From NCBI GenBank assembly GCA_963770995.1, contig CAVYRS010000002.1, positions 569,404 to 633,403 of the forward strand: a stretch of 64,000 bases of DNA, given 5' to 3'. Each line of letters opens with the position of its first letter. Position 1 is the stretch's first letter. The DNA comes from an uncultured Acidobacteriota bacterium (lineage in GTDB: Bacteria; Acidobacteriota; Vicinamibacteria; Vicinamibacterales; CAVVIG01). This document shows, piece after piece, positions 913 to 60,718 of the stretch. Under the pieces are notes generated by a model. The model ran no database searches and had not been told where the DNA came from. It worked only from the letters and a program-made list of their open reading frames with translations. A program made the translations under genes and the position numbers.

Positions 913-1125
913 AAAACCCCCTCGCTCGGGCGGTGCTGGTGCCGCCATGCGGCGCGCAAGTCGGATCGCGAAGGGCCGCCGGATTCTCTGACAGGTTTTC
1001 GCCGGTTCGCCGAAAACCCGGCGGCGGTACGCGCCGTTTCAACGGGTTAGCGCCCGGAGTCCGAGCTCACCGACGTGTTGTGCAAGCCGGCGGCCGGAAC
1101 GAAACATGGATGAGATCCGAGGAGG

Positions 1126-2925
1126 ATGCGAAACCCGTTTCGGCGAGACCTGATCCTGCTGCACCCTCCGGCGGTCTACGACTTCCGGACGAGACCGGCG
1201 TTTCTCGGCCCGTTGGCCGACGCCGTGCCCTCGACCACGATGTTCGAGATGTACCCGGTCGGCCTGACCAGTCTCGCCGCGTTTCTCGAGCGCAACCACT
1301 ACAACGTGGAGATCGTCAATCTCGCATACCGCATGCTGCAGGACCCGCGCTTCGACGTCGCGGCGCAGCTGCGCCGCATGTCGGCGCCGGTGTTCGGCAT
1401 CGATCTGCACTGGCTGCCGCACGTCCAGGGCGCTTTGAGCATCATCGAGCTGGTGAAGCAGCTGCATCCCGGGAGTCGTACCCTCGTGGGCGGGCTGTCG
1501 GCCAGCTACTATCACGAGGAGCTCGTCCGCCATCCGTGCGTCGATTTCGTGCTCCGCGGCGATTCGACCGAGGAACCGGCGCGCCAGCTCCTGCAGGCGC
1601 TCCGCGAATCACGTCCGCTCGACGCGGTCGAAAACCTGACGTGGAAGAAGCCGGACGGCACGGTGGTCGTCAATCCAATGACGTTCGTCCCGACGGATCT
1701 CGACTACGTGGACGTGCCCGCGTACCGCTATCTGCTGCGGTCGATGTTCAAGTACCGCAGCGTGCGCAATCTCGTCCCGCATCTCGAGTGGCTGCGCTAC
1801 CCCGTCACCCTCATCCTCAGCGCGCGCGGCTGCACCGAGAACTGCTCGATCTGCGGCGGATCGCGTTCGGCCTACCTCCGCATCTGCGACCGGCAGCGGC
1901 CCGCGTTTCGATCGCCCGAGAAGCTCGCCTCCGACGTGGCGGCGATCGGCACGTTCTCGCGCGCCCCGATCTTCATGGTGCACGACCCACGCATGGGCGG
2001 CATGCCACGAGCGGTCCGGCTCATGTCGCTGCTCAAACGCCTGCAGCCCGTCAACGAAATGGTGTTCGAGCTCTATTACCCGGCCGGCGACGACTTCGTC
2101 GAACTGGTCGCCGCGAGCGTGCCGACGTGGAGCATCGAGATCACGCTCGAGTCGCCCGACGAACAGCTGCGCCGGCGCAACGGCAAGTTTCCGTGGCCGA
2201 ACGCTGTCGTCGAGGACACGATCGAGCGCGCCCTGGCGCACGGGTGCCGCAAGCTCGATGTCTTCTTCATGACCGGCCTGCCCGGCCAGCACTACGAGGA
2301 CGCGCTCGCGATCGCGGACTACTGCGAACATCTCCTCGATCGCTTCGGATCGTCCGGCCGCCTCCATCCGTTCGTCGCGCCGCTGGGGCCGTTTCTCGAT
2401 CCAGGCTGCCGGGCGTTCGAAGAGCCCTCATTCGGGTACACGACCTTCTGCCGCACGCTCGAGGAGCATCGGCGGGCGTTCCTCCACAACAGCTGGCACC
2501 AGATCCTCTCCTACGAGACGTCCGCGATGACGCGCGACGAAATCGTCCGGGCGACCTACGACGTCGCGGCGCGTCTGAACGAGCTCAAGCATCGCTATCA
2601 GCTGATCGACGACCGCACCTTCGCCGCCGTCCGCTTCCGCCTGCAGATCGCGCGCTACCTCGTCGACCAGCCCGACGTGGTCGACGAGGGCGGCAATCTT
2701 GCCGCAGAGCTCGCCAATCACCGGACGATGTTCGGCGACGACGAGTTGAAGTGGCCGGTGAAGCATCGGTTCCGCGTCGGGACGACGCTGTTGCGCAGCC
2801 TGGCGGCCGGTCTGGCGCTCGAGGTTCACCACACGGCGGCGCGGCTCATCGGCCGCTTCGATGTGGCGCCGGTCGTCTACGCCATGGAGGGGAAGGCCCG
2901 CCGATACGCGCCGCCGCTCCCATGA
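1126..2925 (+). CDS. B12-binding domain/radical SAM protein (TIGR04190-like)
   Basis: DLILLHPPAVYDFR start, B12-binding domain (GIDLHW...GGLSAS), CTENCSIC CxxxCxxC motif, APLGPFLDPG; GAGGAGG RBS. Confidence 0.85.
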   Translation: MRNPFRRDLILLHPPAVYDFRTRPAFLGPLADAVPSTTMFEMYPVGLTSLAAFLERNHYNVEIVNLAYRMLQDPRFDVAAQLRRMSAPVFGIDLHWLPHVQGALSIIELVKQLHPGSRTLVGGLSASYYHEELVRHPCVDFVLRGDSTEEPARQLLQALRESRPLDAVENLTWKKPDGTVVVNPMTFVPTDLDYVDVPAYRYLLRSMFKYRSVRNLVPHLEWLRYPVTLILSARGCTENCSICGGSRSAYLRICDRQRPAFRSPEKLASDVAAIGTFSRAPIFMVHDPRMGGMPRAVRLMSLLKRLQPVNEMVFELYYPAGDDFVELVAASVPTWSIEITLESPDEQLRRRNGKFPWPNAVVEDTIERALAHGCRKLDVFFMTGLPGQHYEDALAIADYCEHLLDRFGSSGRLHPFVAPLGPFLDPGCRAFEEPSFGYTTFCRTLEEHRRAFLHNSWHQILSYETSAMTRDEIVRATYDVAARLNELKHRYQLIDDRTFAAVRFRLQIARYLVDQPDVVDEGGNLAAELANHRTMFGDDELKWPVKHRFRVGTTLLRSLAAGLALEVHHTAARLIGRFDVAPVVYAMEGKARRYAPPLP

Positions 2926-3098
2926 AGCAAGAACCCTTCGTCCTCGAGCGATGCCAGCAGCGCGGCTGAATCCTCGAGATGCAGATCCAGCAGCCGTGCG
3001 ACCTGCTCGACTGTGAGCAGCAGACCCGGCATGTCGAGAAACTCGCCGCGAAGATGTTGTCGATCAGCGTCGCTGGCGATCAGCGTTATCGTGGTCAT
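2877..3098 (-). CDS. Small winged-helix-like hypothetical protein
   Basis: LRGEFLDMPGLLLTVEQVARLL...LEDEGFL..GGAYRR; ATGA overlap with the upstream cytochrome gene; paralog at 49325-49547. Confidence 0.7.
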   Translation of the reverse strand: MTTITLIASDADRQHLRGEFLDMPGLLLTVEQVARLLDLHLEDSAALLASLEDEGFLLHGSGGAYRRAFPSMA

Positions 3099-4465: not shown

Positions 4466-4470
4466 GACAG

Positions 4471-9906: not shown

Positions 9907-9922
9907 GGCAATCGCGATGCCG
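9907..9922 (-). promoter_or_regulatory. Putative sigma-54 -24/-12 promoter for the feoB operon
   Basis: Minus strand CGGCATCGCGATTGCC (GG-N10-GC); palindrome-like TGACGGATTGTCGGCG at 9962-9977. Confidence 0.65.
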
Positions 9923-10049
9923 GAGCGATTCGATGCGACTTCCGCTCGTTTTGGCGGAATCTGACGGATTGTCGGCGGGCAGCGGTGGGGGAAATTCTCG
10001 GGGGCCGCGTGATTTTTCCCACTCCGCCGGCGGTGACGCCCGGGACGGG

Positions 10050-11683: not shown

Positions 11684-12076
11684 TCAGCGTTTGGCCTGCA
11701 GAGTCCGGATGTACAGAACGAGTTGTTCGATCCGCGCGCGCACTTCAGCCGGGCTCTCGCTTCCGCGCGACTTCGCGAACACGCTGGCCCATTCCGGCAT
11801 CTCGGCCGACAGCCCGTGCGCGCGGCCCCCCGCGTCGATGGTCGTGAAGACCTTCTCTGCGGGAAACACGCCGTCGTTCTTCTTCGCGAGCTGCGTCAAG
11901 TCGGCCGGACGGCGCCTCAGCGCCGCCGCGAGGGGGCCGTCGCCCTTGGCCGTCGACCCGTGGCACGAGGAACAGAACGCCAGATAGTCGTCGCTTCCCT
12001 CGTAGCTCGACGCCGTCGGCACGAAGCAAAGCGGGATCACACCCATCAGGAAGACCGCCGCACCCCTCAGCTTCAT
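11684..12076 (-). CDS. Monoheme class I cytochrome c
   Basis: Signal peptide, CSSCHG..GDGP, PADLT, MPEW axial Met; GAGGAGG RBS. Confidence 0.9.
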   Translation of the reverse strand: MKLRGAAVFLMGVIPLCFVPTASSYEGSDDYLAFCSSCHGSTAKGDGPLAAALRRRPADLTQLAKKNDGVFPAEKVFTTIDAGGRAHGLSAEMPEWASVFAKSRGSESPAEVRARIEQLVLYIRTLQAKR

Positions 12077-12134: not shown

Positions 12135-12250
12135 CGCAAAGCACGTGCCGGCGGGAATGGCCAGCGAGCGCCCGCGCTCTGCCGGATTTCCGGCAGAGCG
12201 GCGGAAGCGGTCCGCCGGTCGCGTTGAAGGGGCGAGCACACGAGTTGCAT
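12135..12250. promoter_or_regulatory. Divergent promoter region: sigma-54 site (minus, 12135-12150) and perfect palindrome CTCTGCCGGA-TT-TCCGGCAGAG (core 12180-12195)
   Basis: CGGCACGTGCTTTGCG on the minus strand; plus-strand variant GAGCACACGAGTTGCA. Confidence 0.65.
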
Positions 12251-12297
12251 GCTTCGTCAGTGAGGGGCGGGTGCCCGACGAGTCGAGGGAGGCCATC

Positions 12298-12801
12298 ATG
12301 GTGACGATGAAGCGCATTCTGGTCGCGACCGATTTCGAAGAAGCGGCAGGCGTGGCGCTCGAGTACGGGCGCGAACTGGCGCGCACGTTCGGCGCGCAGC
12401 TGGACGTCCTGCATGTGGCCGACAACATTTTCGCGCGCGGTGCCGTCGGCGAGGGCTACATGGTGTCGTTTACGGAGATGCAACAGGACGTCGAAGCGTC
12501 CGCGCTCAAGAAACTCGATGGGCTGATCTTCGAGGAAGACCGCCAGCTGCTCGGTGCCCGAACGGTGCTGCGCACGTCGGCGTCGCCGGCGGCGGCGATC
12601 ATCGAATACGCGCGCGAGGCCGGCGTCAATCTCATCGTCATGGGGACGCACGGCCGCGGCGCGATGGCGCACCTGCTGATGGGGAGCGTCGCCGAACGGG
12701 TCGTCCGGACAGCGCCGTGTCCGGTGCTGACGGTCCGCCATCCCGAACACGAGTTCGTCCTGCCGGATGCGCTCGTCGCGGTGACCCGAGCGGCGAAATA
12801 G
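12298..12801 (+). CDS. Universal stress protein (single domain)
   Basis: KRILVATDF...LIVMGTHGRG..LMGSVAERVVRTAPCPVLTV. Confidence 0.95.
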   Translation: MVTMKRILVATDFEEAAGVALEYGRELARTFGAQLDVLHVADNIFARGAVGEGYMVSFTEMQQDVEASALKKLDGLIFEEDRQLLGARTVLRTSASPAAAIIEYAREAGVNLIVMGTHGRGAMAHLLMGSVAERVVRTAPCPVLTVRHPEHEFVLPDALVAVTRAAK

Positions 12802-19139: not shown

Positions 19140-19254
19140 TGCAAGAGGTTGGCCCGGGTCACATCGCCGGGGCCGATGACCGGTGCCGAAAAGTCGGCAG
19201 CGGCGCCGGCCGACACCCGGCACTCAGGCCGCGCGGTGTGGCATGGCGCGTGCT
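19140..19254. promoter_or_regulatory. Divergent sigma-54 promoters (minus 19140-19155, plus 19239-19254) flanking palindrome TGCCGAAAAGTCGGCA (19184-19199)
   Basis: GGGCCAACCTCTTGCA (minus) and TGGCATGGCGCGTGCT (plus). Confidence 0.65.
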
Positions 19255-20907: not shown

Positions 20908-22650
20908 TCAGACCTTCGCGACTGCCGGCGTCGGCGTGCCGCGATGATGATAGCGAATCGGCAAGTACTCCGGTCTCCACATCGCCTGTCTGACTTCGGT
21001 CTCGGTGTCCCGATCCAAAGAGACCGCGGCGCGACCCTCGGCGATGGCACGACGGATCACCGCACACGCGACAGCGTGCGAGCAGTCGCGAATTCGTGAC
21101 AACTCCGGGTAGACCAACCCTTGCTCCAGATCCGCGGGACGCACCTGTCCGGCCAGCGCCTTCGCCGCGTCCAGAAACATGGTGTCAGTCACGGTCTGAA
21201 CGCGGCCGACCCACAACCCGAGTCCGACGCCGGGGAAGATGAACGCGTTGTTGCCTTGACCGATCCGGTAGCGGCGGCCCTCGTGCACCACCGGCTCGAA
21301 CGGACTTCCCGTGGCCACGATCGCCCGGCCGTCGGACCAGCGGATGGCGTCGCCGGCAGTGCACTCGCTCCGGCTCGTCGGATTCGACAGCGGAAACACG
21401 ATCGGCCGTTCGTTGAACGCCGCCATCGTCCGGACGACCGATTCCGAGAAGATCCCCGGCGTGCCGGATGTGCCGATCAGGATGGTCGGTTTCAGATGAC
21501 GCACCGTTTCCTCGAGCGTGATGCGGGAGGCGTCGCGGGACGCACAGCCTGCCAGATCGTCCGGTGAACGCGCGTACGTCGCTTTGAAGTCTTCGAGATC
21601 CGGCCGGTCCGTCGTCACCAGGCCCCGGCTGTCGACGGTCGAGATTCTGCGACGCGCCTCGTCGCGCGACAGGCCTTCGTCGCCGAGCGCCGACACGAGC
21701 AGATTGGCGATCCCCTGCGCCGACGCACCGGCGCCCGCCAGCACGATCCGCTGATCCCGGAGTGCACCGCGCGTCATCCGCAGCGCGCCATAAATGCCGG
21801 CGACGACGACCGCCGCCGTGCCCTGAATGTCGTCGTTGAAGGTGCAGAGCCGCTCGCGGAATCGGGCCAGCTGGGCAATGGCATTCGCTTTGAGGAAATC
21901 TTCCCACTGGAGGACCACGTCGGGATAGACGCGCATCACCGCGTCGACGAACCGATCGATGAAGGCCTGGTAGGCGGCTCCACGCACCCGCCGATGGCGC
22001 GCGCCGAGATACAGCGGGTCGGCCAGCCGTTCCTCGTTGTCCGTGCCGACGTCCAGCATGATCGGCAATGTGCGATCCGGCGGAATGCCTGCGCACACCG
22101 TGTAGAGGGATAGCTTCCCGATCGGGATGCCCATGCCGCCGATTCCCTGATCCCCCAGACCGAGAATGCGTTCACCGTCGGTGACGACGATCACCGCCGG
22201 CGAGCGCGGATGGTTCTGCAGGATGTCCTCGATCCGATCAGCCTGCTCGAAGGAGATGTACAAGCCGCGCGCGCGGCGATAGATGTGCGAGAACCGCTGA
22301 CAGGCCTCGCCCACGACCGGCGTGTAGACGATCGGCAACATCTCGTCGATGTGATCCTGCAGCAGCCTGAAGAACAGCGTCTCGTTCCGATCCTGCAGGC
22401 TCGCCAGATGGATGTAGCGTTCCAGATTGGTTGGCTTGGCTCGAAAGTTCTCGTACACTCGATCGAGTTGTTGCTCGATGGTGCAGACGGCCGGCGGCAC
22501 CAGCCCCTCGAGGCCCAACGCCCGGCGTTCCTCCGGCGGGAACGCCGTCCCCTTGTTGGTGAACGGATCGAGGAGCAGGGCCTGGCCGCGCCGATCGACG
22601 GCAAGGTAGGCTTCGCCGGTTCGTGCATCGCTGCGGACCGCCCATTGCAT
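20908..22650 (-). CDS. maeA: NAD-dependent malic enzyme
   Basis: NKGTAF, PIVYTPVVG, TDGERILGLGD, LDVGTDN, QWEDF, FNDDIQGT, GAGASA, LSNPT, QGNNAFIFPG. Confidence 0.95.
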   Translation of the reverse strand: MQWAVRSDARTGEAYLAVDRRGQALLLDPFTNKGTAFPPEERRALGLEGLVPPAVCTIEQQLDRVYENFRAKPTNLERYIHLASLQDRNETLFFRLLQDHIDEMLPIVYTPVVGEACQRFSHIYRRARGLYISFEQADRIEDILQNHPRSPAVIVVTDGERILGLGDQGIGGMGIPIGKLSLYTVCAGIPPDRTLPIMLDVGTDNEERLADPLYLGARHRRVRGAAYQAFIDRFVDAVMRVYPDVVLQWEDFLKANAIAQLARFRERLCTFNDDIQGTAAVVVAGIYGALRMTRGALRDQRIVLAGAGASAQGIANLLVSALGDEGLSRDEARRRISTVDSRGLVTTDRPDLEDFKATYARSPDDLAGCASRDASRITLEETVRHLKPTILIGTSGTPGIFSESVVRTMAAFNERPIVFPLSNPTSRSECTAGDAIRWSDGRAIVATGSPFEPVVHEGRRYRIGQGNNAFIFPGVGLGLWVGRVQTVTDTMFLDAAKALAGQVRPADLEQGLVYPELSRIRDCSHAVACAVIRRAIAEGRAAVSLDRDTETEVRQAMWRPEYLPIRYHHRGTPTPAVAKV

Positions 22651-22689: not shown

Positions 22690-22773
22690 TGCCGGCATTC
22701 CGGCACCCGAAGAGCCGGAGATGCCCGCTGCAAACAGGCTGCCGAGGGGTGGCCTCTTGGCACGTCGTTGGCT
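22690..22773 (+). promoter_or_regulatory. Palindrome TGCCGGCATTCCGGCA (22690-22705) and sigma-54 site TGGCACGTCGTTGGCT (22758-22773)
   Basis: Read directly in the divergent intergenic region. Confidence 0.6.
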
Positions 22774-24592: not shown

Positions 24593-24705
24593 TGCGGGAA
24601 ATCCGGCACTCCCGCGGAAAAACCCGCAGCGGCCGAAGCATGCATCACTCCGCGTCCGCCGAAAAGGCGCGCTTTTGCGCATCAGCCCTTGGCATGGACC
24701 GTGCT
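24593..24705 (+). promoter_or_regulatory. Tandem palindromes (24593-24608, 24613-24628) and sigma-54 site (24690-24705)
   Basis: TGCGGGAAATCCGGCA, CGCGGAAAAACCCGCA, TGGCATGGACCGTGCT. Confidence 0.6.
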
Positions 24706-27435: not shown

Positions 27436-27461
27436 ACGAGCGGGAGACTTGGAAGACTGCG

Positions 27462-32120: not shown

Positions 32121-32176
32121 CGCCGGAAACCCGGCGCTCCGAGCCATTGCTGTATGGTCCTGCAAGAGACCCGCCC
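32121..32176 (-). promoter_or_regulatory. Sigma-54 site (32161-32176) with palindrome CGCCGGAAACCCGGCG (32121-32136) just before the RBS
   Basis: Minus strand GGGCGGGTCTCTTGCA. Confidence 0.55.
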
Positions 32177-33538: not shown

Positions 33539-33681
33539 GACGCGCTCCCCCCGCCGGCAAACCGGCGGCCTGCCGGGAAGAGTGCAAAATGTCGTCCGCT
33601 GATCACAGAACAGCGCCTGACGAACGGTGCGGAGGGAGGACCGTTCGCCAGGCGCCCGGTGAGGCTTGCAGCCTCACTCAC

Positions 33682-33754
33682 AAGTTCGAAGTCAGAAGTC
33701 AGAAGTCAGAGGTCGTCGGCCGGCCCTGCCTTCTGACTTCATGCTTCTGACTTA
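33682..33754. repeat. Inverted heptamer array (GAAGTCA)n...(TGACTTC)n forming a hairpin after mtrB2; possible terminator
   Basis: GAAGTCAGAAGTCAGAAGTCAGAGG ... CCTTCTGACTTC..CTTCTGACTT. Confidence 0.7.
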
Positions 33755-35997: not shown

Positions 35998-36014
35998 GCA
36001 CATCCTCCTGCCGG

Positions 36015-37012
36015 TTACCGAAGGAACATGTTGCCCGCCGGGTGATTCGACCCGTGGATCTGCGAGTGGCAGTTGACGCAGCTGCGTCCGACCACCCGGT
36101 TGCTCGCGGTCGCGAGCTGCGTGCCGTCGTAGATCGTCGCGGGGTGCCGGCTGGCTGACGTGGCACCGCTGGCAGAGCATCGGCTCCTTGGCGACCAGCA
36201 TGCGGTCGTTGTTCGAGCCGTGCGGATCGTGGCAGCTCGCGCAGTTCTCGCGCCCGGCGGCGTGCTCCCACAGGAACGGTCCGCGCTTCTCGGCGTGGCA
36301 GCTGGCGCACGTGTCGTTGACCGTGTTGCCGACCTTGAGCATCCGGACGTTGGTCGACCCGTGCGGCGTGTGGCAGATCGTGCAGTCCATCTTGCCCTCG
36401 CGCACCGGCATGTGGCCCGAACTTCTGGACCTTCATCGCCTCCTGCTTGTGGCAGGTCTGATGCACGGTCGGACGCGGTCACCGTCTTCAGCGCGGCCCG
36501 CGCCGATTTCGGGCTGTGGACACTGTGGCAGCTCACGCACGACACGTTGCGCGCGTCGTGCAGGCTCGCCCTGCCAGCGCGCATGGTCCGCACCCTTGGC
36601 GTGGCACGAAGACAGGCATGTTCGCGTTGCGCGCCTTGAGGGTCGCGAACCGGCGGATGTCCTCTTTCTTGCCTGAATCGACGTGCGCCTGGCCCGGCCC
36701 GTGACAGGTTTCGCACGCCTGTCCGGTTTTCGCGGCCGGGGTCCTGGTGTTTTGCGTCTTGCCGTGCAGCGTCTGATGGAGTCCCCTGGACGCCGTCTCG
36801 TGGCAGGTTGCGCAGGTCTCGTCGCCGACGATGCCCGTCGTCTGGGCGGGCGACGTCGGAGCCGGGGGCGACGCCGCGCTGTGGACTGCGGGTCCGTTCG
36901 CCTCGGACGCTGTGCGGGCGCTGGCGGCGGCCAGGCCGATCATCGCCGAGCAAACGAGAACGAGCGCGGTCACCAGCGGGCGTGCCGGAAAACCGTCACC
37001 GCGTGTGGGCAT
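36015..37012 (-). CDS. mtrA: DmsE/MtrA-family decaheme cytochrome c, copy 2; frameshifted
   Basis: VGDETCATCH, CETCHGPG, CVSCHSVH, MPVREGKMDCTICH, AEKRGPFLWEH, CQRCH, CVNCHSQIHGSNHP; 10 heme sites when the frames are joined. Confidence 0.85.
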
Positions 37013-37075
37013 GTCTCGATCTCCCTGTGAATGCCGCCGACAACCCGTCAAATTGGCGGGTCTGGCACCTGTCCA

Positions 37076-37091
37076 GGCAAGTGGGATGCCC
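37076..37091 (-). promoter_or_regulatory. Putative sigma-54 promoter for mtrAB copy 2
   Basis: GGGCATCCCACTTGCC; core differs by one base from the copy 1 promoter. Confidence 0.7.
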
Positions 37092-37102
37092 GGTGGGAGT
37101 CG

Positions 37103-37163
37103 GACTTCTGACTTCTGACTTCTGACTTCTGACTTCTAACTTCTAACTTCTGACTTCTAACTT
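37103..37163. repeat. Heptamer tandem repeat (RACTTCT) x8 immediately after the mtrB1 stop
   Basis: GACTTCT x5, AACTTCT x2, GACTTCT, partial AACTT. Confidence 0.9.
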
Positions 37164-39349: not shown

Positions 39350-39360
39350 GATGATGACCC

Positions 39361-40338: not shown

Positions 40339-40350
40339 GGCCCAGGCCTA

Positions 40351-40366
40351 GGCAAGGGGGATGCCG
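40351..40366 (-). promoter_or_regulatory. Putative sigma-54 promoter for mtrAB copy 1
   Basis: CGGCATCCCCCTTGCC. Confidence 0.7.
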
Positions 40367-40431
40367 TTCGGAAGGTGGAATCTGGCAGGGGCCGCCCAAT
40401 GCGTCGGCCCCGGGGACACGCGGGTCCGCCC

Positions 40432-41805
40432 CTACTCGATCTTGTGGCAGGCCTCGCAGTCCTGGCCGATCGCCTTGCCGTCCTTCGTCTTGTGGCTGTC
40501 GTCGTGGCAGCGGAAACAGCCCGGAAAGTCCATGTGGCCGATGTTGTTGACGTAGGTGCCGAAGGCCACGTTCATCTCGGGGAACACGTTGCGCCGGTAG
40601 ATGTCGATCGCGCCATTCACAGCCTTTTCGACTTCCTGGCGGCGCGACATGTACTCGGTCGGGAACTGCGATCGGTAAAAATCCCGCAGTGTGCGGGAAA
40701 TTTCCTCGGTCGCCCGCTCCTGCGTCGGATAGCTGGCTTTCAACGCCTTGACGGTCTCGCGACGGGCGAAGGGCAGCGTCTTCGGAATATCACCCCGGGC
40801 CATCAACTGGTTCACGGCCCGCTCGGGCGTCGCGGCCATCGGATGACTCGGACGATTGTGACAATCCATGCAGTCCATGCGGCGGCGCTCGCCTCGTGCG
40901 AGCGCCTCCGGCTTGGCGCCCTCGGCGGTGTACTCGCGGACGTTGCCGAACCGATCCTTGACGCGTACCCACGGGATCACCTGCCGCTTGTCGTCGGTCG
41001 CGATGTACTCGACCTCGTTGGCGACGTTCATGTGCCAGTGGATGCCCTGGGCGATGCCCAGGCGCTCGCTGCCGCCGCCCACGTGCACCTGGAGCGTGGT
41101 GATCGATTCGGTGTTCTTCTCATCCTCGGCGTATTCGAAGGCACGCACGACCTTGTCGCCGTGGAACTTCTCGGGCCAGTGGCACTGCTCGCACGTGTCG
41201 CGGGCGGGCCGCAGGTTCTGCACCGGCGACGGAATCGGTCGCGAGTAGGTGTGGAACGTGACGGCCAGCACCTGGCGGGTCCCGGAAATCTTCGATCGCG
41301 CAAACCACGACGCGCCGGCGCCGATGTGGCACTGGACGCACGTGACTCGCGAATGCGGGCCGTCCTGATACGCGATGAACTGAGGCTTCATCACCGAGTG
41401 GCAGACCTGCCCGCAGAACTCCACCGAATCCATGAACTCGACGCCGCGATAGGCCGCCAGCGATACGATCACGATGTTCGCCATCGTCAGGGCGAAGATG
41501 ATGACGGCCGCGCGCCGTTGGGTCGAATCGTTGAAATCGAGCCGCGGCCAATGGATTTCGGCCGCCGGGCGGCCGCGCGCGCGCCGGCGCCGCTCGATCG
41601 CGGCGCCAAGCGGGATGAGCGCGAGACCGAAAATGAACACTCCCGGCAGCACCAGGAAGAACAAGATGCCAAGGTAGGGGTTGGTGTGCAGCCCGAAGAG
41701 ATCGGCTAAGAAGACGACCAGGAAGACAACGGCGCTGGTCGTGGTCAGCACCATGCCCGTGACGGAAAGCGGGATTCGGATCAGTCGGACGCTGCGCGCA
41801 GCCAC
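40432..41805 (-). CDS. Inner-membrane NapC/NirT-domain multiheme cytochrome c (ImcH-like)
   Basis: Three N-terminal TM helices (NPYLGIL), FCGQVCH (CX3CH) plus CVQCH, CEQCH, CMDCH, CFRCH, CEACH; GIHWH, NRPSH. Confidence 0.85.
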   Translation of the reverse strand: MAARSVRLIRIPLSVTGMVLTTTSAVVFLVVFLADLFGLHTNPYLGILFFLVLPGVFIFGLALIPLGAAIERRRRARGRPAAEIHWPRLDFNDSTQRRAAVIIFALTMANIVIVSLAAYRGVEFMDSVEFCGQVCHSVMKPQFIAYQDGPHSRVTCVQCHIGAGASWFARSKISGTRQVLAVTFHTYSRPIPSPVQNLRPARDTCEQCHWPEKFHGDKVVRAFEYAEDEKNTESITTLQVHVGGGSERLGIAQGIHWHMNVANEVEYIATDDKRQVIPWVRVKDRFGNVREYTAEGAKPEALARGERRRMDCMDCHNRPSHPMAATPERAVNQLMARGDIPKTLPFARRETVKALKASYPTQERATEEISRTLRDFYRSQFPTEYMSRRQEVEKAVNGAIDIYRRNVFPEMNVAFGTYVNNIGHMDFPGCFRCHDDSHKTKDGKAIGQDCEACHKIE

Positions 41806-43590: not shown

Positions 43591-45293
43591 AACACCCTCA
43601 CGCGCGCGAGCTCGCGCCTGGCCGGATCGACGACGTGAACCCCGCACGCCATACAGGGATCGAACGAGTGAATGGTCCGCAGGATCTCGATGGGCCGCTC
43701 CGGATCCGCCACCGGCGTACCGATCAAGGCCTCCTCGTACGGCCCACGCTTGCCGGGGCCGTCGCGCGGGCCCGCGTTCCACGTGCTGGGGACGATGCAC
43801 TGGTAGTTCTCGATCGCGCCGTCCTTGATGTGCACCCAGTGGCCGAGCGCGCCGCGCGGCGCCTCGTGGAAGCCGGCGCCGGTGGCGTCGGCCGGCCAGG
43901 AGCTCGGATCCCATTTCGAGTTGTCGTGAATCCGCAGATCGCGCTTGGCCATGTTGGCGGTCAGCGCGTCGAGCCAGTCGCCCATCTTCTCCGCGAGGAT
44001 TTGCGTCTCGATGCCGCGGGCCGCCACCCGGCCGAGCGTCGAAAAGAGCGCGGCGGGGCCGACGTTGAGCTTCTGCAGGACGGCGCCGACCAGCGCCTTG
44101 ACCTGCGGGTGACCCGACGCGTACGCGACCAGCATTCGCGACAGCGGGCCGACCTCCATCGGCTCGCCTTCGTAGCGCGGCGCCTTCAACCAGCTGTACT
44201 TCTTGGCCGTGTCCAGCCGCTCGTACGGCGGCTTGGGGCCCGTGTAGTTCGGCTTGGTCTCGCCACTCGAGGGGTGCACTCCCTTCTCGTCGCCGCCCTC
44301 GTAGTCGTACCACGAGTGCGTGACGTACTCAGTGATCTTCGCCTGATCGACGCGCTCGACCGACCCGAGGTTCTTCCCGCGAATGATGCCGCTTGGCAGA
44401 AACAGCGCCGGCTGCGCCCCGTCGTCGTCGGGATACTCGCCGTAGACGAGGTAGTTGCCGACGCCGGCGCCGTGCCCCGCCCAGTCCTTGTAGAACGAGG
44501 CCACGGCGAGTAGATCCGGAATGTAGACTTTCGTGACGAAGTCGCGCGCGCTCGCGATCAGCTCACGGAGCCCGGCGATCGTGCCGGCGTTGATGGACGC
44601 CTGCTTGTCCGGATCGATCGGCGTTGCCATCCCACCAACCAGAAAGCTTTGGAGGTGCGGGTTCTTGCCGCCGAGCACCGCGTGCATGCGGATGAAGTCC
44701 CGCTGCCACTCGAGCGCCTCCAGGTAGTGCGCCACGGCCAGCAGATTGGCCTCCGGCGGTAGCTTGTAGGCAGGGTGGCCCCAGTACGCGTTGGCGAACG
44801 GGCCGAGCTGTCCGCGCTCGACGAAGCCCTTCACGCGATCGCGCACGCCGGCGAAGTATTTCGAGCTCGACTTCGGCCAGTCGGAGATCGACTCCGCCAG
44901 CGAGGACGTCTTAGCGGGATCGGCCGAGAGCGCCGACACGATGTCGACCCAATCGAGCGCGTGCAGATGATAGAAATGCACCACGTGATCCTGCACGCAC
45001 TGCGACGCGATGATCAGGTTGCGCAGCAGGCGCGCGTTCGGCGGCGGCGTGGCGCCAATCGCCTGCTCCACCGCCCGGATCGACGTGATGGCGTGGACGG
45101 TCGTGCACACGCCGCAGATACGCTGAGTGAACGCCCATGCGTCTCGCGGATCCCGGCCTTTCAGGATCAGCTCGATCCCCCGGAACATCGTCGAGGACGA
45201 CCAGGCGTCGCGCACGACGCCGCCGTCGACTTCCGCCTCGATGCGCAGGTGGCCTTCGATACGAGTGACCGGATCGACCACGATGTGGCTCAT
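43587..45293 (-). CDS. hyaB: Group 1 [NiFe]-hydrogenase large subunit
   Basis: DPVTRIEGH, L1 TQRICGVCTTVH, HFYHLHALDW, EAPRG, L2 SFDPCMACGVH plus cleavable tail. Confidence 0.97.
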   Translation of the reverse strand: MSHIVVDPVTRIEGHLRIEAEVDGGVVRDAWSSSTMFRGIELILKGRDPRDAWAFTQRICGVCTTVHAITSIRAVEQAIGATPPPNARLLRNLIIASQCVQDHVVHFYHLHALDWVDIVSALSADPAKTSSLAESISDWPKSSSKYFAGVRDRVKGFVERGQLGPFANAYWGHPAYKLPPEANLLAVAHYLEALEWQRDFIRMHAVLGGKNPHLQSFLVGGMATPIDPDKQASINAGTIAGLRELIASARDFVTKVYIPDLLAVASFYKDWAGHGAGVGNYLVYGEYPDDDGAQPALFLPSGIIRGKNLGSVERVDQAKITEYVTHSWYDYEGGDEKGVHPSSGETKPNYTGPKPPYERLDTAKKYSWLKAPRYEGEPMEVGPLSRMLVAYASGHPQVKALVGAVLQKLNVGPAALFSTLGRVAARGIETQILAEKMGDWLDALTANMAKRDLRIHDNSKWDPSSWPADATGAGFHEAPRGALGHWVHIKDGAIENYQCIVPSTWNAGPRDGPGKRGPYEEALIGTPVADPERPIEILRTIHSFDPCMACGVHVVDPARRELARVRVL

Positions 45294-46444
45294 GACCGCC
45301 CCCCCTTCTCGGCCGCGGCGGACTCAGCTCCGCCCGGCGGCTCCGGTCGATCCGGTCCACGATGCATCTTCTCGATGTCGCTGCGACGCCTGATCGTCGA
45401 GATCACGCCGTGGCCGGCGAACGCCGCGCCCACGGCGATCACCGCGCCCACGCCGACCTGGTCGACCGTCGTGCCGATGCCGAAGCCAGGGATGCCGCTG
45501 AGGTGCTGATAGAACGGCGTCATCTTGTCCCAGAAGTCCGGTTCCGCGCAGCCGATGCACGGGTGTCCGCACCCGATCGGCCAGTTCGTGCCGCTGTTCC
45601 ATCGGACGTTGGGGCAGTTCTGGTACGTCACCGGCCCTTTGCAGCCCATCTTGTAGAGGCAGTAGCCGGTGCGATGGGCCTCATCGCCCCACGCTTCCAC
45701 GTACTGGCCCGCGTCGAAATGCGCGCGGCGTTCGCAGTTGTCGTGGATGGACTTGCCGTAGGCAAACAGCGGGCGACGATACGCGTCGAGTGGCGGCAGC
45801 GCCTTGAACGTCAGGTAGTAGACGACGAGCGCCGTGAGGTTCTCGACGTTGGCGGGACACGCCGGCAGGTTGATCAGGTTCTTCAATCCTGGCACGGCAT
45901 CGGCCACGCCGAGCGCGCCGGTGGGGTTCGGCGCCGCCGCCGGCAAGCCGCCGAACGCCGCACAGGTGCCGATGGCGATCGTGGCCGCGGCCTTCCCGCA
46001 CACCTCGCGGGCGATGTCGAGCGCCGCACGTCCACCAATCGTGCAGTACGCGCCGCCGGCGCCGGTCGGGATCGATCCTTCGACGACGGCAATGTACCCG
46101 CCGCTCTTGTCGGCGATCGTCTTCTGCAGCACCGCTTCGGCCTGGTGGCCGGCCGCCGCCATGATGGTCTCGTGATAGTCGACCGAGAGCGTGTCGAGCA
46201 CGATCTCGGCAGCGGTCGGACGGCTCGCCCGGAGAAAGGACTCGGTGTTGCCGGCGCAGTCCTGGAACTCCAACCAGACGAGAACCGGTTTCGGGGTCCG
46301 TTCGACCGCCTGGACGACGGCCGCCGTCAGCGACTCGGGCAGCGCCAGCACCGAACTGACCGCCGCGCAGAACTGGAGAAAGTCACGCCGTGACACGCCA
46401 CGACGTTCGAGCTCGCGCGTGAGCCAGTGTTGCGAGTCGGACAT
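45290..46444 (-). CDS. hyaA: Group 1 [NiFe]-hydrogenase small subunit (Tat signal, C-terminal TM anchor)
   Basis: SRRDFLQFC, EFQDCAGNTES, GTCAAFGG, PACP, IHDNC, CLYKMGCKGP, HPCIGC. Confidence 0.95.
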   Translation of the reverse strand: MSDSQHWLTRELERRGVSRRDFLQFCAAVSSVLALPESLTAAVVQAVERTPKPVLVWLEFQDCAGNTESFLRASRPTAAEIVLDTLSVDYHETIMAAAGHQAEAVLQKTIADKSGGYIAVVEGSIPTGAGGAYCTIGGRAALDIAREVCGKAAATIAIGTCAAFGGLPAAAPNPTGALGVADAVPGLKNLINLPACPANVENLTALVVYYLTFKALPPLDAYRRPLFAYGKSIHDNCERRAHFDAGQYVEAWGDEAHRTGYCLYKMGCKGPVTYQNCPNVRWNSGTNWPIGCGHPCIGCAEPDFWDKMTPFYQHLSGIPGFGIGTTVDQVGVGAVIAVGAAFAGHGVISTIRRRSDIEKMHRGPDRPEPPGGAESAAAEKGGRS

Positions 46445-46457: not shown

Positions 46458-46529
46458 TTCCGGGAAACCGGCAATTCAGTCCGGTCGGAGGCAACGGCCA
46501 TGCCAGGTATGACTGCCGGCAATCCGTCC
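46458..46529 (-). promoter_or_regulatory. Sigma-54 promoter of the hydrogenase operon (46490-46505) flanked by two palindrome copies
   Basis: TGGCATGGCCGTTGCC (minus); TTCCGGGAAACCGGCA at 46458-46473; TGCCGGCAATCCGTCC at 46514-46529. Confidence 0.72.
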
Positions 46530-48992: not shown

Positions 48993-49328
48993 TTACTTCT
49001 TCTTGAGGGTCGCCATGTAGGCGACGAGTGCGTCGAGATCGGCTTTCGGCAGATCGTAATTCTTCATTTCCGGCTTTCGCGGCGCCTTCGTCTTCACCGT
49101 CATGCCCTTGGCGTCGACGATCCACGCGCGCAGTTCGTCGAGCGTGCGCATCGAGCCGACGTCGCCGAGCGGCCCCTTCTTGTTGCCCTTGTCGCCAATC
49201 GAATGACAGAGCGAGCATTTCTGTTCGACGTAGACCTGTGCGCCCCTCGTCACCTTGGCATCCTGTGCGGCGGCCGCCGCCGTCACCGTGGCCGTCAGGA
49301 CGAGCGCGCCGAGAATCGAGCGAGTCAC
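48993..49328 (-). CDS. Small periplasmic monoheme cytochrome c (tandem paralog)
   Basis: AAGGAGG plus GTG start, AAAQD, QKCSLCH, RKPEMK; highly similar to its neighbour. Confidence 0.88.
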   Translation of the reverse strand: MTRSILGALVLTATVTAAAAAQDAKVTRGAQVYVEQKCSLCHSIGDKGNKKGPLGDVGSMRTLDELRAWIVDAKGMTVKTKAPRKPEMKNYDLPKADLDALVAYMATLKKK

Positions 49329-58701: not shown

Positions 58702-58726
58702 CGGAGATTTGCCACCTGCGGCCTCA

Positions 58727-59218: not shown

Positions 59219-59323
59219 TGCCGGAATTCCGGCGGGACGAGCGTTGCACGAGTCGGTGAGGTGTTGAGGCAGGCCAATTGCACGGACCGAGAGGAGGCGC
59301 AACGCCGCGACGGATTATCGGCA
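59219..59323. promoter_or_regulatory. Palindromes (59219-59234, 59308-59323) and sigma-54-like site (59267-59282) upstream of the CBS gene
   Basis: TGCCGGAATTCCGGCG; AGGCAGGCCAATTGCA; CGACGGATTATCGGCA. Confidence 0.55.
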
Positions 59324-59399: not shown

Positions 59400-59858
59400 A
59401 TGCTCGTCAGTGAAATCATGAAGAGGCCGCCCGCCACGTGCAAAACGAGCGACAGCGTGACCGAGGCGGCGAAGATCATGCACGATCACAAGTGCGGCTT
59501 CGTGCCCGTCGTCGATCCGCACGGCGCCGTTGTCGGTGTGGTGACGGATCGGGATGTGTGCATGATCGTGGGGGACAAGAACCGAGCCATGACCCACGTG
59601 TCGGTCCAGGACGCGATGTCGCGTCCGATGTTCAGTTGCTATGGCGACGAGAACGTGAAGACGACGCTGGCGACGATGGCGAAGCGGCACGTCAGGCGCC
59701 TGCCCGTGTTGGACAAGCACGGACATCTCCAGGGCGTGCTCTCGATCGACGACATCATTCAGGCGCCGCCCCGACGCGGGTCGCCGAGCGCTGAAGACAT
59801 CGTGTCCGCGTTGAAGGGGATTTGCGCGCCCCGGCCCATCGAAACCGCTTCGGTCTGA
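59400..59858 (+). CDS. CBS domain protein (Hrp1/Rv2626c-like)
   Basis: VSEIM, CGFVPVVD, GVVTDRD, VRRLPVLD, GVLSIDD; GGAGG RBS. Confidence 0.92.
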   Translation: MLVSEIMKRPPATCKTSDSVTEAAKIMHDHKCGFVPVVDPHGAVVGVVTDRDVCMIVGDKNRAMTHVSVQDAMSRPMFSCYGDENVKTTLATMAKRHVRRLPVLDKHGHLQGVLSIDDIIQAPPRRGSPSAEDIVSALKGICAPRPIETASV

Positions 59859-59861
59859 GGA

Positions 59862-60353
59862 ATGGAGCTGTGTATGCCGGCGACATCGGCGACTCATGAA
59901 TTTCTTCGAGCGGCCCACGTGGGGTACACGGTGGTGCCGCACAGACCGGCGTACACCGCACAGGAGGAGGCGGCCGCCGTCCACGTCCCGGGCCGAGACT
60001 GGGCCAAGGTCGTCGTCTGCTTCGTCGACGGCGAACCCATCGAGGCCGTTGTGCCCGCGCCGCTGGTCGTAAATCTCGACCGGCTGCTCGAGGTAACTGG
60101 CGGGAGCGTGATCCGGCTTGCCCGGGAGGACGAATTAGCGCGCCTGTACCCCGGTTGTGAACCAGGCGCGATGCCTCCCCTCGGACTCTACGGCCAGACG
60201 GTGTTTGTCGACGTGACGCTGGCGAGGGAACCCGTGCTCGCCTTCAACGCCGGCACCCACACCGAAGCGATTGGGATGCGCTGGGCGGACTTTGCGGCGA
60301 GTGTCAGACCGATTGTGGCCCGTTTCGCTGAACCACCGCTCGATCAACTGTGA
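59862..60353 (+). CDS. YbaK/EbsC aminoacyl-tRNA editing domain protein
   Basis: H..AYTAQEEA, AKVVV, LARE, CEPGAMPP.G, FNAGTH. Confidence 0.88.
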   Translation: MELCMPATSATHEFLRAAHVGYTVVPHRPAYTAQEEAAAVHVPGRDWAKVVVCFVDGEPIEAVVPAPLVVNLDRLLEVTGGSVIRLAREDELARLYPGCEPGAMPPLGLYGQTVFVDVTLAREPVLAFNAGTHTEAIGMRWADFAASVRPIVARFAEPPLDQL

Positions 60354-60718
60354 GCGGGAAGCCCGCGCGAGGTCCGCGAGTGGCTCAGGTGAGAGGCGCG
60401 CTCTACTCGCCCCACAACGCCTGACCAGACCGAGGGCGTTCTTCGCAAGCGTCGACGGAATTCCGGCCATGATCTCGATAGTGTCGCGCCGCGCCGTCGC
60501 CGGTACGGCGGCGGCGACCTGAGCGGCTCCGCCACGTGATTGCCGGGTTTCCGGCACACGCCCTCGACGTGTTCGCTTCCCACCTCCGCCTCGCACCGGC
60601 AACTGCCTCGACGCCAAACAGTAACGAGAGTCGGCGCTGGTCGTGGCGATTGGCACGCCTCGTGAGAGACGTCTTTCGATTGCTTTCGTCCATGCAATTG
60701 ATTCGGGAGGCTGGGAAC

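What the first reader, a model, noticed from the sequence alone, without database searches (positions are those of the whole stretch)
990..60556. Recurring 16-bp palindrome YGCCGG-N4-CCGGCR in intergenic regions across the window
Seen at 1008, 9962, 12180, 19184, 22690, 24593, 24613, 32121, 33552, 37035, 46458, 46514, 49578, 50083, 59219, 59308 and 60541. Each has a mostly A/T-rich 4-nt core, lies in an intergenic region and is usually near a sigma-54-like site. Inference: this is the operator of one undescribed regulator, probably a bacterial enhancer-binding protein encoded outside the window, controlling the whole island.
Basis: partly seen in the sequence, partly recalled or inferred. Interest (0 to 1): 0.8.

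Follow-up and report, generated by a model that had tools for sequence, protein, structure and literature searches.

The report
Enhancer site of a low-oxygen regulon
The repeated 16-letter palindrome is real and is most likely the docking site of one sigma-54 activator protein that switches on about thirty promoters for low-oxygen and anaerobic life in a soil acidobacterium.

Summary
The palindrome is real and far beyond chance. Exact YGCCGG-N4-CCGGCR occurs 7 times in the window against 0.21 expected. With an A/T core it occurs 23 times in the 9.3-Mb genome; 20 lie in one 171-kb stretch of contig C2 and 19 of those are intergenic.

It is not a terminator, an RNA hairpin or a REP element. It sits at helically phased distances from sigma-54 -24/-12 promoters: 14 of 23 strong sites have one 40-130 bp away, against 2.5% of controls.

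The genes served are universal stress proteins, Hsp20, NiFe hydrogenase, multihaem cytochromes with MtrB/PioB porins, nos genes and PFOR. This is a hypoxia/anaerobiosis regulon.

Motif, promoters and gene set recur across an acidobacterial order. They co-occur with one enhancer-binding protein, encoded 39 kb left of the window. It is NifA-like, lacks a sensor domain, has four invariant cysteines and is always paired with a NifU-like gene.

Binding itself is untested. I found no description in print. I class it as a new variant of a known kind.

The parts
1008..1023 (.). Degenerate palindrome (1 mismatch, PWM 13.0) between Hsp20 (466-912, -) and the B12-radical SAM gene (1126-2925, +)
   Evidence: In relative G008 the orthologous Hsp20 and B12-rSAM genes each carry an exact site upstream. 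Pfam.
9962..9977 (.). Weak palindrome (2 mismatches, PWM 10.3); -24/-12-like element at 9907-9922 (-), 61 bp from the centre, facing the FeoB gene pieces
   Evidence: Not significant by sequence alone.
12180..12195 (.). Consensus palindrome TGCCGGATTTCCGGCA in the divergent region between cytochrome c (11684-12076, -) and Usp (12271-12801, +)
   Evidence: PWM 26.7.
12135..12150 (-). Sigma-54-type promoter CGGCAC-N5-TTGC, 51 bp from the palindrome centre, facing the cytochrome c gene
   Evidence: score 19.0.
12234..12249 (+). Weaker -24/-12-like element (GAGCAC-N5-TTGCA), about 60 bp from the palindrome centre, facing Usp
   Evidence: score 16.5.
19184..19199 (.). Palindrome with a symmetric change (TGCCGA...TCGGCA, PWM 12.8). 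Promoters at 19239-19254 (+, 61 bp) and 19140-19155 (-, 50 bp)
22690..22705 (.). Exact palindrome between malic enzyme (20908-22650, -) and the HAD/ATPase gene (22803-24560, +)
   Evidence: PWM 23.6.
22758..22773 (+). Sigma-54-type promoter TGGCAC-N5-TTGGC, 74 bp from the palindrome centre
   Evidence: score 19.5.
22729..22744 (-). Sigma-54-type promoter facing malic enzyme. The palindrome lies 33 bp downstream of its -12 element
   Evidence: score 18.5.
24593..24608 (.). Palindrome with 1 mismatch (PWM 20.5). Promoter at 24690-24705 (+), 103 bp away
32121..32136 (.). Exact palindrome (CG flanks) 11 nt upstream of the ATG of a tandem-Usp gene (31228-32109, -). It lies 34 bp downstream of the -12 element at 32161-32176 (-)
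33552..33567 (.). Exact palindrome 13 nt upstream of the ATG of Usp (33071-33538, -). A GG-N10-GC element (GGACGA-CATT-TTGCA) lies just upstream; I read this by eye and it scores below my threshold
36983..36998 (.).
37035..37050 (.). Weak palindrome (2 mismatches, PWM 7.0), 35 bp downstream of the -12 of the element at 37076-37091 (-)
46458..46473 (.). Palindrome (1 mismatch, PWM 14.0), 13 nt upstream of the ATG of the NiFe hydrogenase small subunit (45290-46444, -) and 26 bp downstream of the -12
46490..46505 (-). Sigma-54-type promoter TGGCAT-N5-TTGCC of the hydrogenase operon, flanked by the two palindromes
   Evidence: score 19.0.
46514..46529 (.). Palindrome (2 mismatches, PWM 11.3), 30 bp upstream of the hydrogenase -12 element (proximal class)
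   Evidence: The same 29-33 bp spacing recurs in relatives.
49578..49593 (.). Palindrome (1 mismatch, PWM 9.7), 35 bp downstream of the -12 of the promoter at 49619-49634 (-, score 19.5) that faces cytochrome c (48993-49547)
50083..50098 (.). Consensus palindrome in the divergent region. Promoters at 50183-50198 (+, 106 bp upstream class) and 50125-50140 (-, palindrome 36 bp downstream)
   Evidence: PWM 26.7.
59219..59234 (.). Exact palindrome, 54 bp upstream of the -12 of the promoter at 59267-59282 (+) that faces the CBS-domain gene (59400-59858)
   Evidence: PWM 24.3.
59308..59323 (.). Weak palindrome (2 mismatches, PWM 9.3), 35 bp downstream of the same promoter's -12
60541..60556 (.). Exact palindrome 162 bp upstream of a TonB-dependent-receptor-like gene (60719-63769, +). 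Only a weak -24/-12 match (score 16) lies 115 bp away. A companion weak site is at 60453-60468

Best explanation
TGCCGG-NWWN-CCGGCA is the upstream activator sequence (enhancer) of a sigma-54-dependent low-oxygen/anaerobiosis regulon.

Proposed mechanism: a dimer of the C-terminal Fis-type helix-turn-helix of one enhancer-binding protein binds the two half-sites. The protein then assembles into its AAA+ ring on the same face of the helix as the closed sigma-54 holoenzyme complex at GG-N10-GC promoters, and opens those promoters by ATP hydrolysis.

The most likely binder is 'bEBP2' at C2:529.9-530.9 kb, outside the window. It is NifA-like, starts directly with the AAA+ domain (no sensor domain), and carries four invariant cysteines (C-x6-C-x-C-x6-C) between the AAA+ domain and the DNA-binding domain. 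It is always encoded beside a small NifU/Nfu-type CxxC protein.

I infer that oxygen is read at two levels. First, a FixL-like haem kinase with an NtrC-type regulator (bEBP1). Second, a metal or Fe-S centre on the bEBP2 cysteines, serviced by the Nfu partner. This is analogous to the rhizobial FixLJ-NifA cascade.

Shown: the motif's existence, its concentration in the island, its coupling to sigma-54 promoters, its conservation, and its co-occurrence with bEBP2. Inferred: binding by bEBP2, the oxygen signal and the role of the cysteines.

My odds are about 0.85 that it is a bEBP enhancer and about 0.6 for the whole statement, including bEBP2 as the binder.
For: **Concentration in the island**
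- 20 of 23 genomic YGCCGG-NWWN-CCGGCR sites lie in C2:521.6-692.8 kb, and 19 of those are intergenic. That is 37 kb of the genome's 1,929 kb of intergenic DNA.
- Eight control palindromes of the same composition have no island hit.
- PWM score >=16: 26 sites in the island against 13 in the other 9.1 Mb.
- The top-enriched 7- and 8-mers of island intergenic DNA are pieces of the motif.

**Coupling to sigma-54 promoters**
- 14 of 23 strong sites have an outward -24/-12 match scoring >=18 at 40-130 bp, against 2.5% of 3000 random intergenic controls. At >=19 the figures are 10 of 23 against 0.67%.
- In relatives, 5 of 21 sites reach >=18, against 1.6% of controls.
- Centre-to-(-12) spacings cluster at 29, 51, 61, 72, 83, 93 and 104 bp, and at -35 bp. 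The Rayleigh R is 0.52 at a 10.5-bp period, and 0.0002 of 5000 random sets reach that value.
- rpoN is present.

**Genomic context**
- 14 of 23 sites lie between divergent genes, against 22% of all intergenic regions.

**Conservation**
- The exact motif is found in 20 of 41 relatives, and in 97 of 201 genomes of the order including G000.
- It lies upstream of orthologous genes in G008.
- It recurs through a similar 130-kb island in another family, G091.

**Candidate binder (bEBP2)**
- Of 200 genomes, the 70 with an orthologue average 2.73 sites (reversed-pattern control 0.29), and 41 of the 70 have >=2 sites.
- The 130 without an orthologue average 0.46 sites (control 0.23), and 12 of the 130 have >=2 sites. 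Fisher odds ratio 13.9.
- The 11 genomes with two copies average 7.1 sites.
- Two of the exceptions checked (G041, G101) hold a diverged copy; in G101, the one read in full, it has the same helix, Cys motif and NifU neighbour.
- The recognition helix KRSTLGDRI and the Cys motif occur once in this genome.
- Both features are invariant in 18 of 18 aligned orthologues.
- A NifU-like gene is adjacent in 17 of 18 relatives.
- The best solved-structure match is NifA, 9qq6_C, E 8e-82.
- Palindromes lie upstream of the bEBP operons in G023 and G091.
Against: - No binding, expression or transcription-start data exist. No RNA run is listed.
- Co-occurrence is expected for any gene of the island and is not corrected for phylogeny.
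- 13 of the 70 genomes with the orthologue have no exact site, and 12 of the 130 without it have two or more.
- In this assembly bEBP2 is split by two frameshifts. Short-read contigs 90-99% alike (pieces spanning the sites about 98%), from four runs of one study, omit one base at each of the two places. Dropping those bases opens a 328-aa frame. This points to assembly error, but these may be relatives and not this strain.
- Six to eight sites lie 26-36 bp downstream of the -12 element, at about +15 to +31 of the transcript. That is unusual for an activator site and could mean repression or an RNA role there.
- The proximal class, centred about -41, is closer than textbook enhancers.
- My sigma-54 scoring rests on a consensus recalled from memory, and my gene calls are crude.
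- The structure model of bEBP2 was too poor to say whether the cysteines cluster.
Confidence: 0.6

Rival explanations
1. The palindrome is an enhancer for sigma-54 promoters, but the binder is bEBP1. This is the REC-AAA+-HTH_8 response regulator at C2:516.5-517.5 kb, partnered with a FixL-like kinase that has two haem-PAS domains.
For: bEBP1 lies at the left edge of the island. Its kinase matches FixL haem-PAS structures at E 1e-36 to 1e-42, so it is an obvious oxygen sensor. In many relatives it forms one operon with NifU and bEBP2. Palindromes lie upstream of it in G023 and G091.
Against: Among the 41 relatives, 14 genomes have a bEBP1 orthologue but no bEBP2, and they carry 0-1 exact sites each. 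G032 and G034 have 6 and 3 sites without a bEBP1 orthologue at E<=1e-130. A site upstream of bEBP1 fits it being a target as well as it being the binder. I did not repeat the bEBP1 search in the 200-genome sample.
Confidence: 0.12
2. The palindrome is bound by a different, non-AAA+ transcription factor that co-regulates or represses the sigma-54 promoters. Candidates are a NarL/DosR-type response regulator partnered with the PAS-GAF-HisKA_3 kinase, or an unannotated small protein.
For: The 6-N4-6 layout resembles boxes of NarL-family regulators such as ComA and DosR (recalled). A DosS-like HisKA_3 kinase lies in the island at C2:553996-556308. In G091 that kinase and a GerE-type regulator sit inside the island beside a palindrome. 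Sites at about +23 and about -41 are positions typical of repressors or class II activators. Several island ORFs have no Pfam match.
Against: In the 200-genome sample of the order, orthologues of the GerE-type regulator (C2:716468-717112; >=64% identity) occur in 42 genomes that average about one exact site. The genomes with the most sites (G179 18; G143, G171 and G213 9 each; G091 and G194 8 each) lack it. Of the roughly 120 island proteins scanned, only bEBP1, bEBP2 and one ECF sigma factor bind DNA. Not every ORF was scanned. Sigma-54 promoters require an AAA+ activator (established knowledge), and no second conserved motif was seen beside them.
Confidence: 0.13
3. The palindrome acts as RNA or as a selfish or structural repeat: an intrinsic terminator, a 5'-UTR stabilising hairpin or a REP-type element.
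For: It would fold into a 6-bp G+C stem with a 4-nt loop. Six to eight copies lie in the predicted 5' leaders just before the ribosome-binding site.
Against: - None of 23 sites is followed by a T-run on either strand.
- 14 of 23 lie between divergent genes and only 1 between convergent genes.
- The stem letters are fixed, not covarying. Of 17 deviating sites, 16 break the symmetry and 1 keeps it.
- Flanks are not conserved.
- Copies are confined to one island and sit at orthologous promoters in other genera.
- No Rfam family matches in the window.
Confidence: 0.03

Closest known systems
NifA and its upstream activator sequence TGT-N10-ACA (proteobacterial nitrogen fixation)
   Same: Both are 16-bp dyads upstream of sigma-54 promoters. 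NifA is the best solved-structure match of bEBP2 (9qq6_C, E 8e-82). [quoted passage not shown] That paper also gives the UAS as TGT-N10-ACA.
   Different: The motif here is TGC-N10-GCA with G+C-rich half-sites. bEBP2 has no GAF domain (19 of 19 sequences). The cysteine spacing C-x6-C-x-C-x6-C differs from NifA's as I recall it. The recognition helix differs. The targets are stress, hydrogenase, cytochrome and nos genes, not nif genes.
Rhizobial FixLJ - FixK/NifA oxygen cascade
   Same: A haem-PAS FixL-type kinase sits in the same operon or island as a NifA-like activator. Both systems drive a microoxic gene set.
   Different: Here the kinase's partner is an NtrC-type sigma-54 activator, not FixJ. 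No FNR/FixK-type box was seen. The cascade order is my inference.
Sensor-less enhancer-binding proteins controlled in trans (PspF-PspA, HrpR/S-HrpV; 4 of 37 EBPs in Desulfovibrio vulgaris)
   Same: The AAA+ domain starts at the N-terminus. A small conserved neighbour gene is the natural candidate for control. PMC4641369 (passages read) notes that such EBPs suggest a partner protein or a cascade.
   Different: The neighbour is an Nfu-type CxxC iron-sulfur protein and the activator carries its own four-Cys motif. No such pair turned up in my searches.
Hypoxia/dormancy regulons: Burkholderia cenocepacia lxa locus and the Mycobacterium tuberculosis DosR regulon
   Same: The gene content is similar: many universal stress proteins, alpha-crystallin/Hsp20, cation ATPases, electron-transfer and metabolic genes clustered in one locus with a shared upstream motif. 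For lxa see PMC3721108 (passages read). The DosR content is recalled.
   Different: The lxa motif is FNR/Anr-like TGA-N6-TCA and its promoters are not reported as sigma-54 type. DosR is a NarL-type regulator. Here the promoters are -24/-12 type and the regulator is an AAA+ activator.
Caulobacter FlbD 'ftr' enhancers, which can lie downstream of sigma-54 promoters (recalled, not checked in a paper)
   Same: This is a precedent for enhancer sites downstream of the start site.
   Different: Those sites lie about 100 bp away. Here the downstream class is fixed at about 35 bp from the -12 element.

Membership tests
Enhancer (UAS) of a sigma-54 promoter bound by a bEBP | -24/-12 promoter (GG-N10-GC) within looping distance of the site | tested here: met
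   14 of 23 sites against 2.5% of 3000 controls at score >=18. In relatives, 5 of 21 against 1.6%. The promoter consensus was recalled.
Enhancer (UAS) of a sigma-54 promoter bound by a bEBP | Face-of-helix relation between the site and the promoter | tested here: met
   Spacing period 10.5 bp, R 0.52; 0.0002 of 5000 random sets reach it. Orthologous promoters are not independent.
Enhancer (UAS) of a sigma-54 promoter bound by a bEBP | rpoN, and a bEBP with a DNA-binding domain, encoded in the genome | tested here: met
   rpoN at C4:574308-574781. bEBP2 has Sigma54_activat and HTH_8 matches.
Enhancer (UAS) of a sigma-54 promoter bound by a bEBP | The bEBP physically binds the repeat, and transcription depends on it | not testable with these tools
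   Only co-occurrence is available. No RNA runs are listed.
NifA / NifA UAS | UAS TGT-N10-ACA | tested here: not met
   Position 3 of the motif is C in 19 of 19 seed sites. The NifA UAS is as given in PMC10590331.
NifA / NifA UAS | N-terminal GAF domain | tested here: not met
   All 19 orthologue sequences start 10-15 residues before the AAA+ domain. The top 120 database relatives are mostly 330-358 aa with no N-terminal domain.
NifA / NifA UAS | Conserved cysteines at the AAA+/linker junction | tested here: inconclusive
   Four Cys are invariant in 18 of 18 sequences and lie at the same junction. The spacing differs from NifA's (recalled), and metal binding is untested.
FNR/Anr box, as in the Burkholderia lxa locus | TGA-N6-TCA / TTGAT-N4-ATCAA dyad | tested here: not met
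   The half-site here is TGCCGG. The lxa motif is as given in PMC3721108.
DosR/NarL-type operator | A cognate GerE-type response regulator travels with the motif | tested here: not met
   Orthologues of C2:716468-717112 show no association with site counts.
Intrinsic terminator | G+C hairpin followed by a T-run, downstream of a gene | tested here: not met
   0 of 23 sites have a T-run. 14 of 23 lie between divergent genes.
REP/REPIN element | Many dispersed copies with conserved flanks across the genome | tested here: not met
   20 of 23 copies lie in one 171-kb stretch. Flanks are not conserved. Sites are kept at orthologous promoters in other genera.

The most novel reading that the evidence does not exclude
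A whole order of soil Acidobacteriota may run its switch to low-oxygen and anaerobic respiration through an FNR-like oxygen sensor built on a sigma-54 chassis. The genes switched include hydrogenase, N2O reductase, porin-cytochrome conduits and stress proteins.

The sensor would be a sensor-less, NifA-derived activator whose activity depends on an oxygen-labile metal or Fe-S centre. That centre would be held by four invariant cysteines and loaded by a dedicated Nfu partner.

The enhancer would work in a fixed helical phase from three positions: about -41, about -62 to -118, and about +23 inside the transcribed leader.
Probability: 0.3. Interest if true: 0.75.

Novelty: new variant of a known kind. 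Interest (0 to 1): 0.62.

Why it matters
Acidobacteriota are among the most abundant soil bacteria, yet almost nothing is known about how they regulate genes.

This site gives a directly testable handle on a large regulon: about 30 promoters in 171 kb here, and up to 18 exact sites in relatives. The regulon covers H2 oxidation, N2O reduction, possible extracellular electron transfer and dormancy-type stress proteins. These traits matter for soil gas fluxes.

It names a candidate master regulator and a candidate oxygen-sensing mechanism. Both can be tested with ordinary biochemistry.

It also offers a natural case of sigma-54 enhancers at unusually close and downstream positions with strict helical phasing.

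Tried and rejected
- **RNA evidence.** No RNA holder is listed for window:11000-16000, so transcription starts and induction could not be checked.
- **Structure.** The AlphaFold2 model of bEBP2, built from 18 close orthologues, was poor (mean pLDDT 51). It says nothing about whether the cysteines cluster. No fold search was run.
- **Related loci.** The related-loci scan of genome contigs was swamped by paralogous activators. Only 1 of the 80 loci kept was a true orthologue.
- **Complex prediction for NifU with bEBP2** was not sent, because a cluster carrier with its client is the kind of pair the tool advises against.
- **Literature.** Searches for the motif letters, for acidobacterial sigma-54 or hypoxia regulons and for NifU-linked activators found nothing relevant. 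The 2025 sigma-54 regulon survey (PMC12316311) does not mention Acidobacteria in its main text. Supplementary files were not open to me and might list such motifs.
- **FNR-type box.** I first expected one by analogy with the Burkholderia lxa locus. I rejected this on the sequence.
- **DosR-like regulator.** I considered it because of the 6-N4-6 layout. I rejected it on co-occurrence.
- **Earlier scan notes.** Nothing was recorded near this window.


Full report
**1. The observation**

The window is G000:C2:569404-633403, in a 9.3-Mb, 66% G+C genome of five contigs.

- Exact YGCCGG-N4-CCGGCR occurs 7 times in the window against 0.21 expected.
- Allowing two mismatches gives 123 matches against 65 expected. 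Degenerate copies therefore cannot be judged by sequence alone.
One (24613) has three mismatches and is not a member.
- Aligned sites show a 16-bp unit TGCCGG-NWWN-CCGGCA with no conserved flanks.

**2. Where it occurs**

I wrote a crude codon-usage gene caller. It finds about 80% coding density, which is low because the assembly carries frameshifts.

- Genome-wide, the A/T-core form occurs 23 times. Twenty copies lie between C2:521.6 and 692.8 kb, and 19 of those are intergenic. That stretch holds 37 kb of the genome's 1,929 kb of intergenic DNA.
- Eight control palindromes of the same composition have no copy in that stretch.
- A PWM scan gives about 33 intergenic sites there.
- The words most enriched in island intergenic DNA, relative to all other intergenic DNA, are pieces of the palindrome, followed by pieces of TGGCA/TTGCA.
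- One of the few outside copies (C5:751606) lies beside a gene whose product is 96% identical to an island protein, i.e. a duplicate of an island segment.

**3. What the island encodes**

Pfam scans of about 120 products were made. They show:

- many universal stress proteins, Hsp20, and CBS and OsmC proteins;
- a NiFe hydrogenase with hyp genes;
- multihaem cytochromes with MtrB/PioB-type porins, and cytochrome b/Rieske units;
- nos-type genes, PFOR, malic enzyme, P-type ATPases, FeoAB and radical-SAM enzymes.

This is a low-oxygen/anaerobic set. It resembles in content the Burkholderia lxa locus, whose motif is however FNR-like TGA-N6-TCA (PMC3721108, passages read).

**4. It is not RNA, a terminator or a REP**

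- None of 23 strong sites is followed by a T-run.
- 14 lie between divergent genes (22% expected) and one between convergent genes.
- Of 17 deviating copies, 16 break the symmetry, so the letters and not the pairing are conserved.
- No Rfam family matches in the window.
A different palindrome, YCCGGC-NWWN-GCCGGR, has 176 copies outside the island and none inside. Our motif behaves in the opposite way.

**5. Coupling to sigma-54 promoters**

- Reading the upstream regions shows GG-N10-GC elements of the TGGCAC-N5-TTGC type.
- With a simple score built on the recalled consensus, 14 of 23 sites have an outward-facing match scoring >=18 at 40-130 bp, against 2.5% of 3000 random intergenic positions. 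At >=19 the figures are 10 of 23 against 0.67%.
- In 21 exact sites from 20 loci of relatives, the figures are 5 of 21 against 1.6%.
- I pooled this island, a related island and the other loci. The distances from palindrome centre to the -12 GC fall at 29-33, 51-54, 60-62, 66-75, 81-86, 92, 99 and 104-106 bp.
- A separate class lies at -33 to -40 bp, meaning the palindrome is downstream of the promoter.
- The upstream distances have a 10.5-bp period (R 0.52). Only 0.0002 of 5000 random sets reach that value, and the downstream class is in the same phase. Orthologous promoters are not independent, so the probability is rough.
- rpoN is present, and the genome has about 45 sigma-54 activator domains.

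**6. Conservation**

- The exact motif occurs in 20 of 41 relatives (including G000), with up to 8 copies in a relative. The reversed-pattern control gives 0-2.
- It occurs in 97 of 201 genomes of the order including G000, with up to 18 copies.
- In G008, exact sites lie upstream of the orthologues of the B12-radical SAM gene, Hsp20, Usp, cytochrome c and a small unknown gene. All of these also carry sites here.
- In G091, from another family, a 130-kb region holds the same gene families, at least 15 palindromes and strong -24/-12 elements. These include three promoters where the palindrome starts 7 nt upstream of the -24 element.

**7. The regulator**

Two enhancer-binding proteins lie at the left of the island.

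bEBP1 (C2:516.5-517.5 kb):
- It has the REC-AAA+-HTH_8 layout (intact orthologue read; AAA+ and HTH_8 pieces of the G000 copy by Pfam).
- It lies next to a kinase whose two PAS domains match FixL haem-PAS structures.

bEBP2 (C2:529.9-530.9 kb):
- It has AAA+ and HTH_8 domains only.
- It is preceded by a NifU-type gene and a -24/-12 element.

The assembly splits bEBP2 by two frameshifts. Short-read contigs 90-99% alike (pieces spanning the sites about 98%), from four runs of one study, omit one base at each of the two places. Dropping those bases gives a 328-aa open frame, 75% identical to the G004 protein. PFOR, a P-type ATPase and bEBP1 are also split, and completeness is 84%. I therefore read these breaks as assembly errors, without proof.

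Features of bEBP2 orthologues:
- They lack any N-terminal domain in all 19 sequences examined.
- They keep four cysteines (C-x6-C-x-C-x6-C) and the helix GNKS-AA-L-KRSTLGDRI, invariant in 18 of 18 aligned.
- They have a NifU-like neighbour in 17 of 18 relatives.
- Their best solved-structure match is NifA.
- The helix and the Cys motif occur once in this genome.
- The family is large in metagenomes and carries only generic names.

**8. Co-occurrence**

In 200 genomes of the order:

| Genomes | n | Mean exact sites | Reversed control | With >=2 sites |
|---|---|---|---|---|
| With a bEBP2 orthologue | 70 | 2.73 | 0.29 | 41 |
| Without | 130 | 0.46 | 0.23 | 12 |

- The Fisher odds ratio is 13.9. 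It is not corrected for phylogeny.
- Genomes with two copies average 7.1 sites.
- Two of the exceptions checked (G041, G101) hold a diverged copy below my threshold; in G101, the one read in full, it has the same helix, Cys motif and NifU neighbour.
- bEBP1 orthologues occur in 14 genomes that lack both bEBP2 and the motif. They were not found in G032 and G034, which have 6 and 3 sites. My first impression that G007 lacks bEBP1 was wrong: it is cut by a contig end.
- A GerE-type regulator (C2:716468-717112), the likely partner of the island's HisKA_3 kinase, shows no association.
- Any island gene would co-occur with an island motif. This evidence therefore ranks candidates but does not prove binding.

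**9. Mechanism proposed**

- The palindrome is the enhancer for bEBP2.
- Its AAA+ ring contacts the sigma-54 holoenzyme from one helical face.
- Oxygen is probably sensed by the FixL-like kinase acting through bEBP1.
- A second sensing level is probably a cysteine-bound metal or Fe-S centre on bEBP2, served by the Nfu partner.
- This parallels FixLJ-NifA. PMC10590331 (passages read) gives the NifA UAS as TGT-N10-ACA and describes conserved redox-linked cysteines at the same junction.
- The sites at about +23 and about -41 are not explained by the textbook picture. They may activate at short range, limit transcription or act as RNA as well.

**10. Novelty**

A bEBP enhancer is a known kind. I found none of the following in print (supplements closed):
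- this motif;
- a sigma-54 hypoxia regulon in Acidobacteriota;
- the sensor-less NifA-like activator with its Nfu partner;
- the phased proximal and downstream site classes.

The lineage call rests on the title of the one true orthologue locus and on the earlier notes.

Noticed in passing
Genome-wide outside C2:515-700 kb: A different palindrome, YCCGGC-NWWN-GCCGGR, has 176 copies (107 intergenic) and none in the island.
   Followed up: no
window 27435-29643; L002:1-912 (bEBP2); L001:6510-8698 (bEBP1 and kinase); L002:4469-7554 (PFOR): Several long genes are split into two or three frames. For bEBP2, short-read contigs omit one base at each break. The assembly seems to carry single-base insertions, which would also explain its 84% completeness.
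   Followed up: partly
window 32190-32570, minus strand: An uncalled Usp-like reading frame lies between the CBS gene and the tandem-Usp gene. Its C-terminal motif ([13 protein letters not shown]) ends about 32190. It is either a fragment or a frameshifted gene (read by eye).
   Followed up: no
L023:10017-11681 (G004); C2:518072-518698 in G000: A FixL-like histidine kinase with two tandem haem-PAS-like domains is paired with an NtrC-type sigma-54 activator, not with FixJ.
   Followed up: partly
window 33752-41805: MtrB/PioB-type outer-membrane porin genes, some in pieces, lie next to multihaem cytochromes. This looks like a possible extracellular electron-transfer conduit in an acidobacterium, apparently inside the regulon.
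   Followed up: no
P0103: One metagenomic relative of bEBP2 (466 aa) carries a fused universal-stress-protein domain (PF00582). This links the regulator family to its most common target family.
   Followed up: no
C2:588542, 601563, 642553, 651493, 656462, 674124 region: Several island promoters share an extended -12 region, CTCTTGCA. This goes beyond the usual TTGC.
   Followed up: no
C5:751606-754230: The product of a neighbouring gene is 96% identical over 719 residues to that of C2:653456-656422. The segment carries its own copy of the palindrome and a -24/-12-like element 83 bp away, so it is a recent duplication of one regulon member.
   Followed up: partly
C2:553996-556308 and C2:716468-717112: A DosS-like PAS-PAS-GAF-PAS-HisKA_3 kinase lies in the island, while its likely GerE-type partner lies 160 kb away. 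In G091 the two are adjacent inside the island.
   Followed up: partly
C2:691523-692119 (L006:18526-19119, minus strand): An ECF sigma factor gene lies at the right edge of the island, next to an OsmC gene and the last strong palindrome.
   Followed up: no
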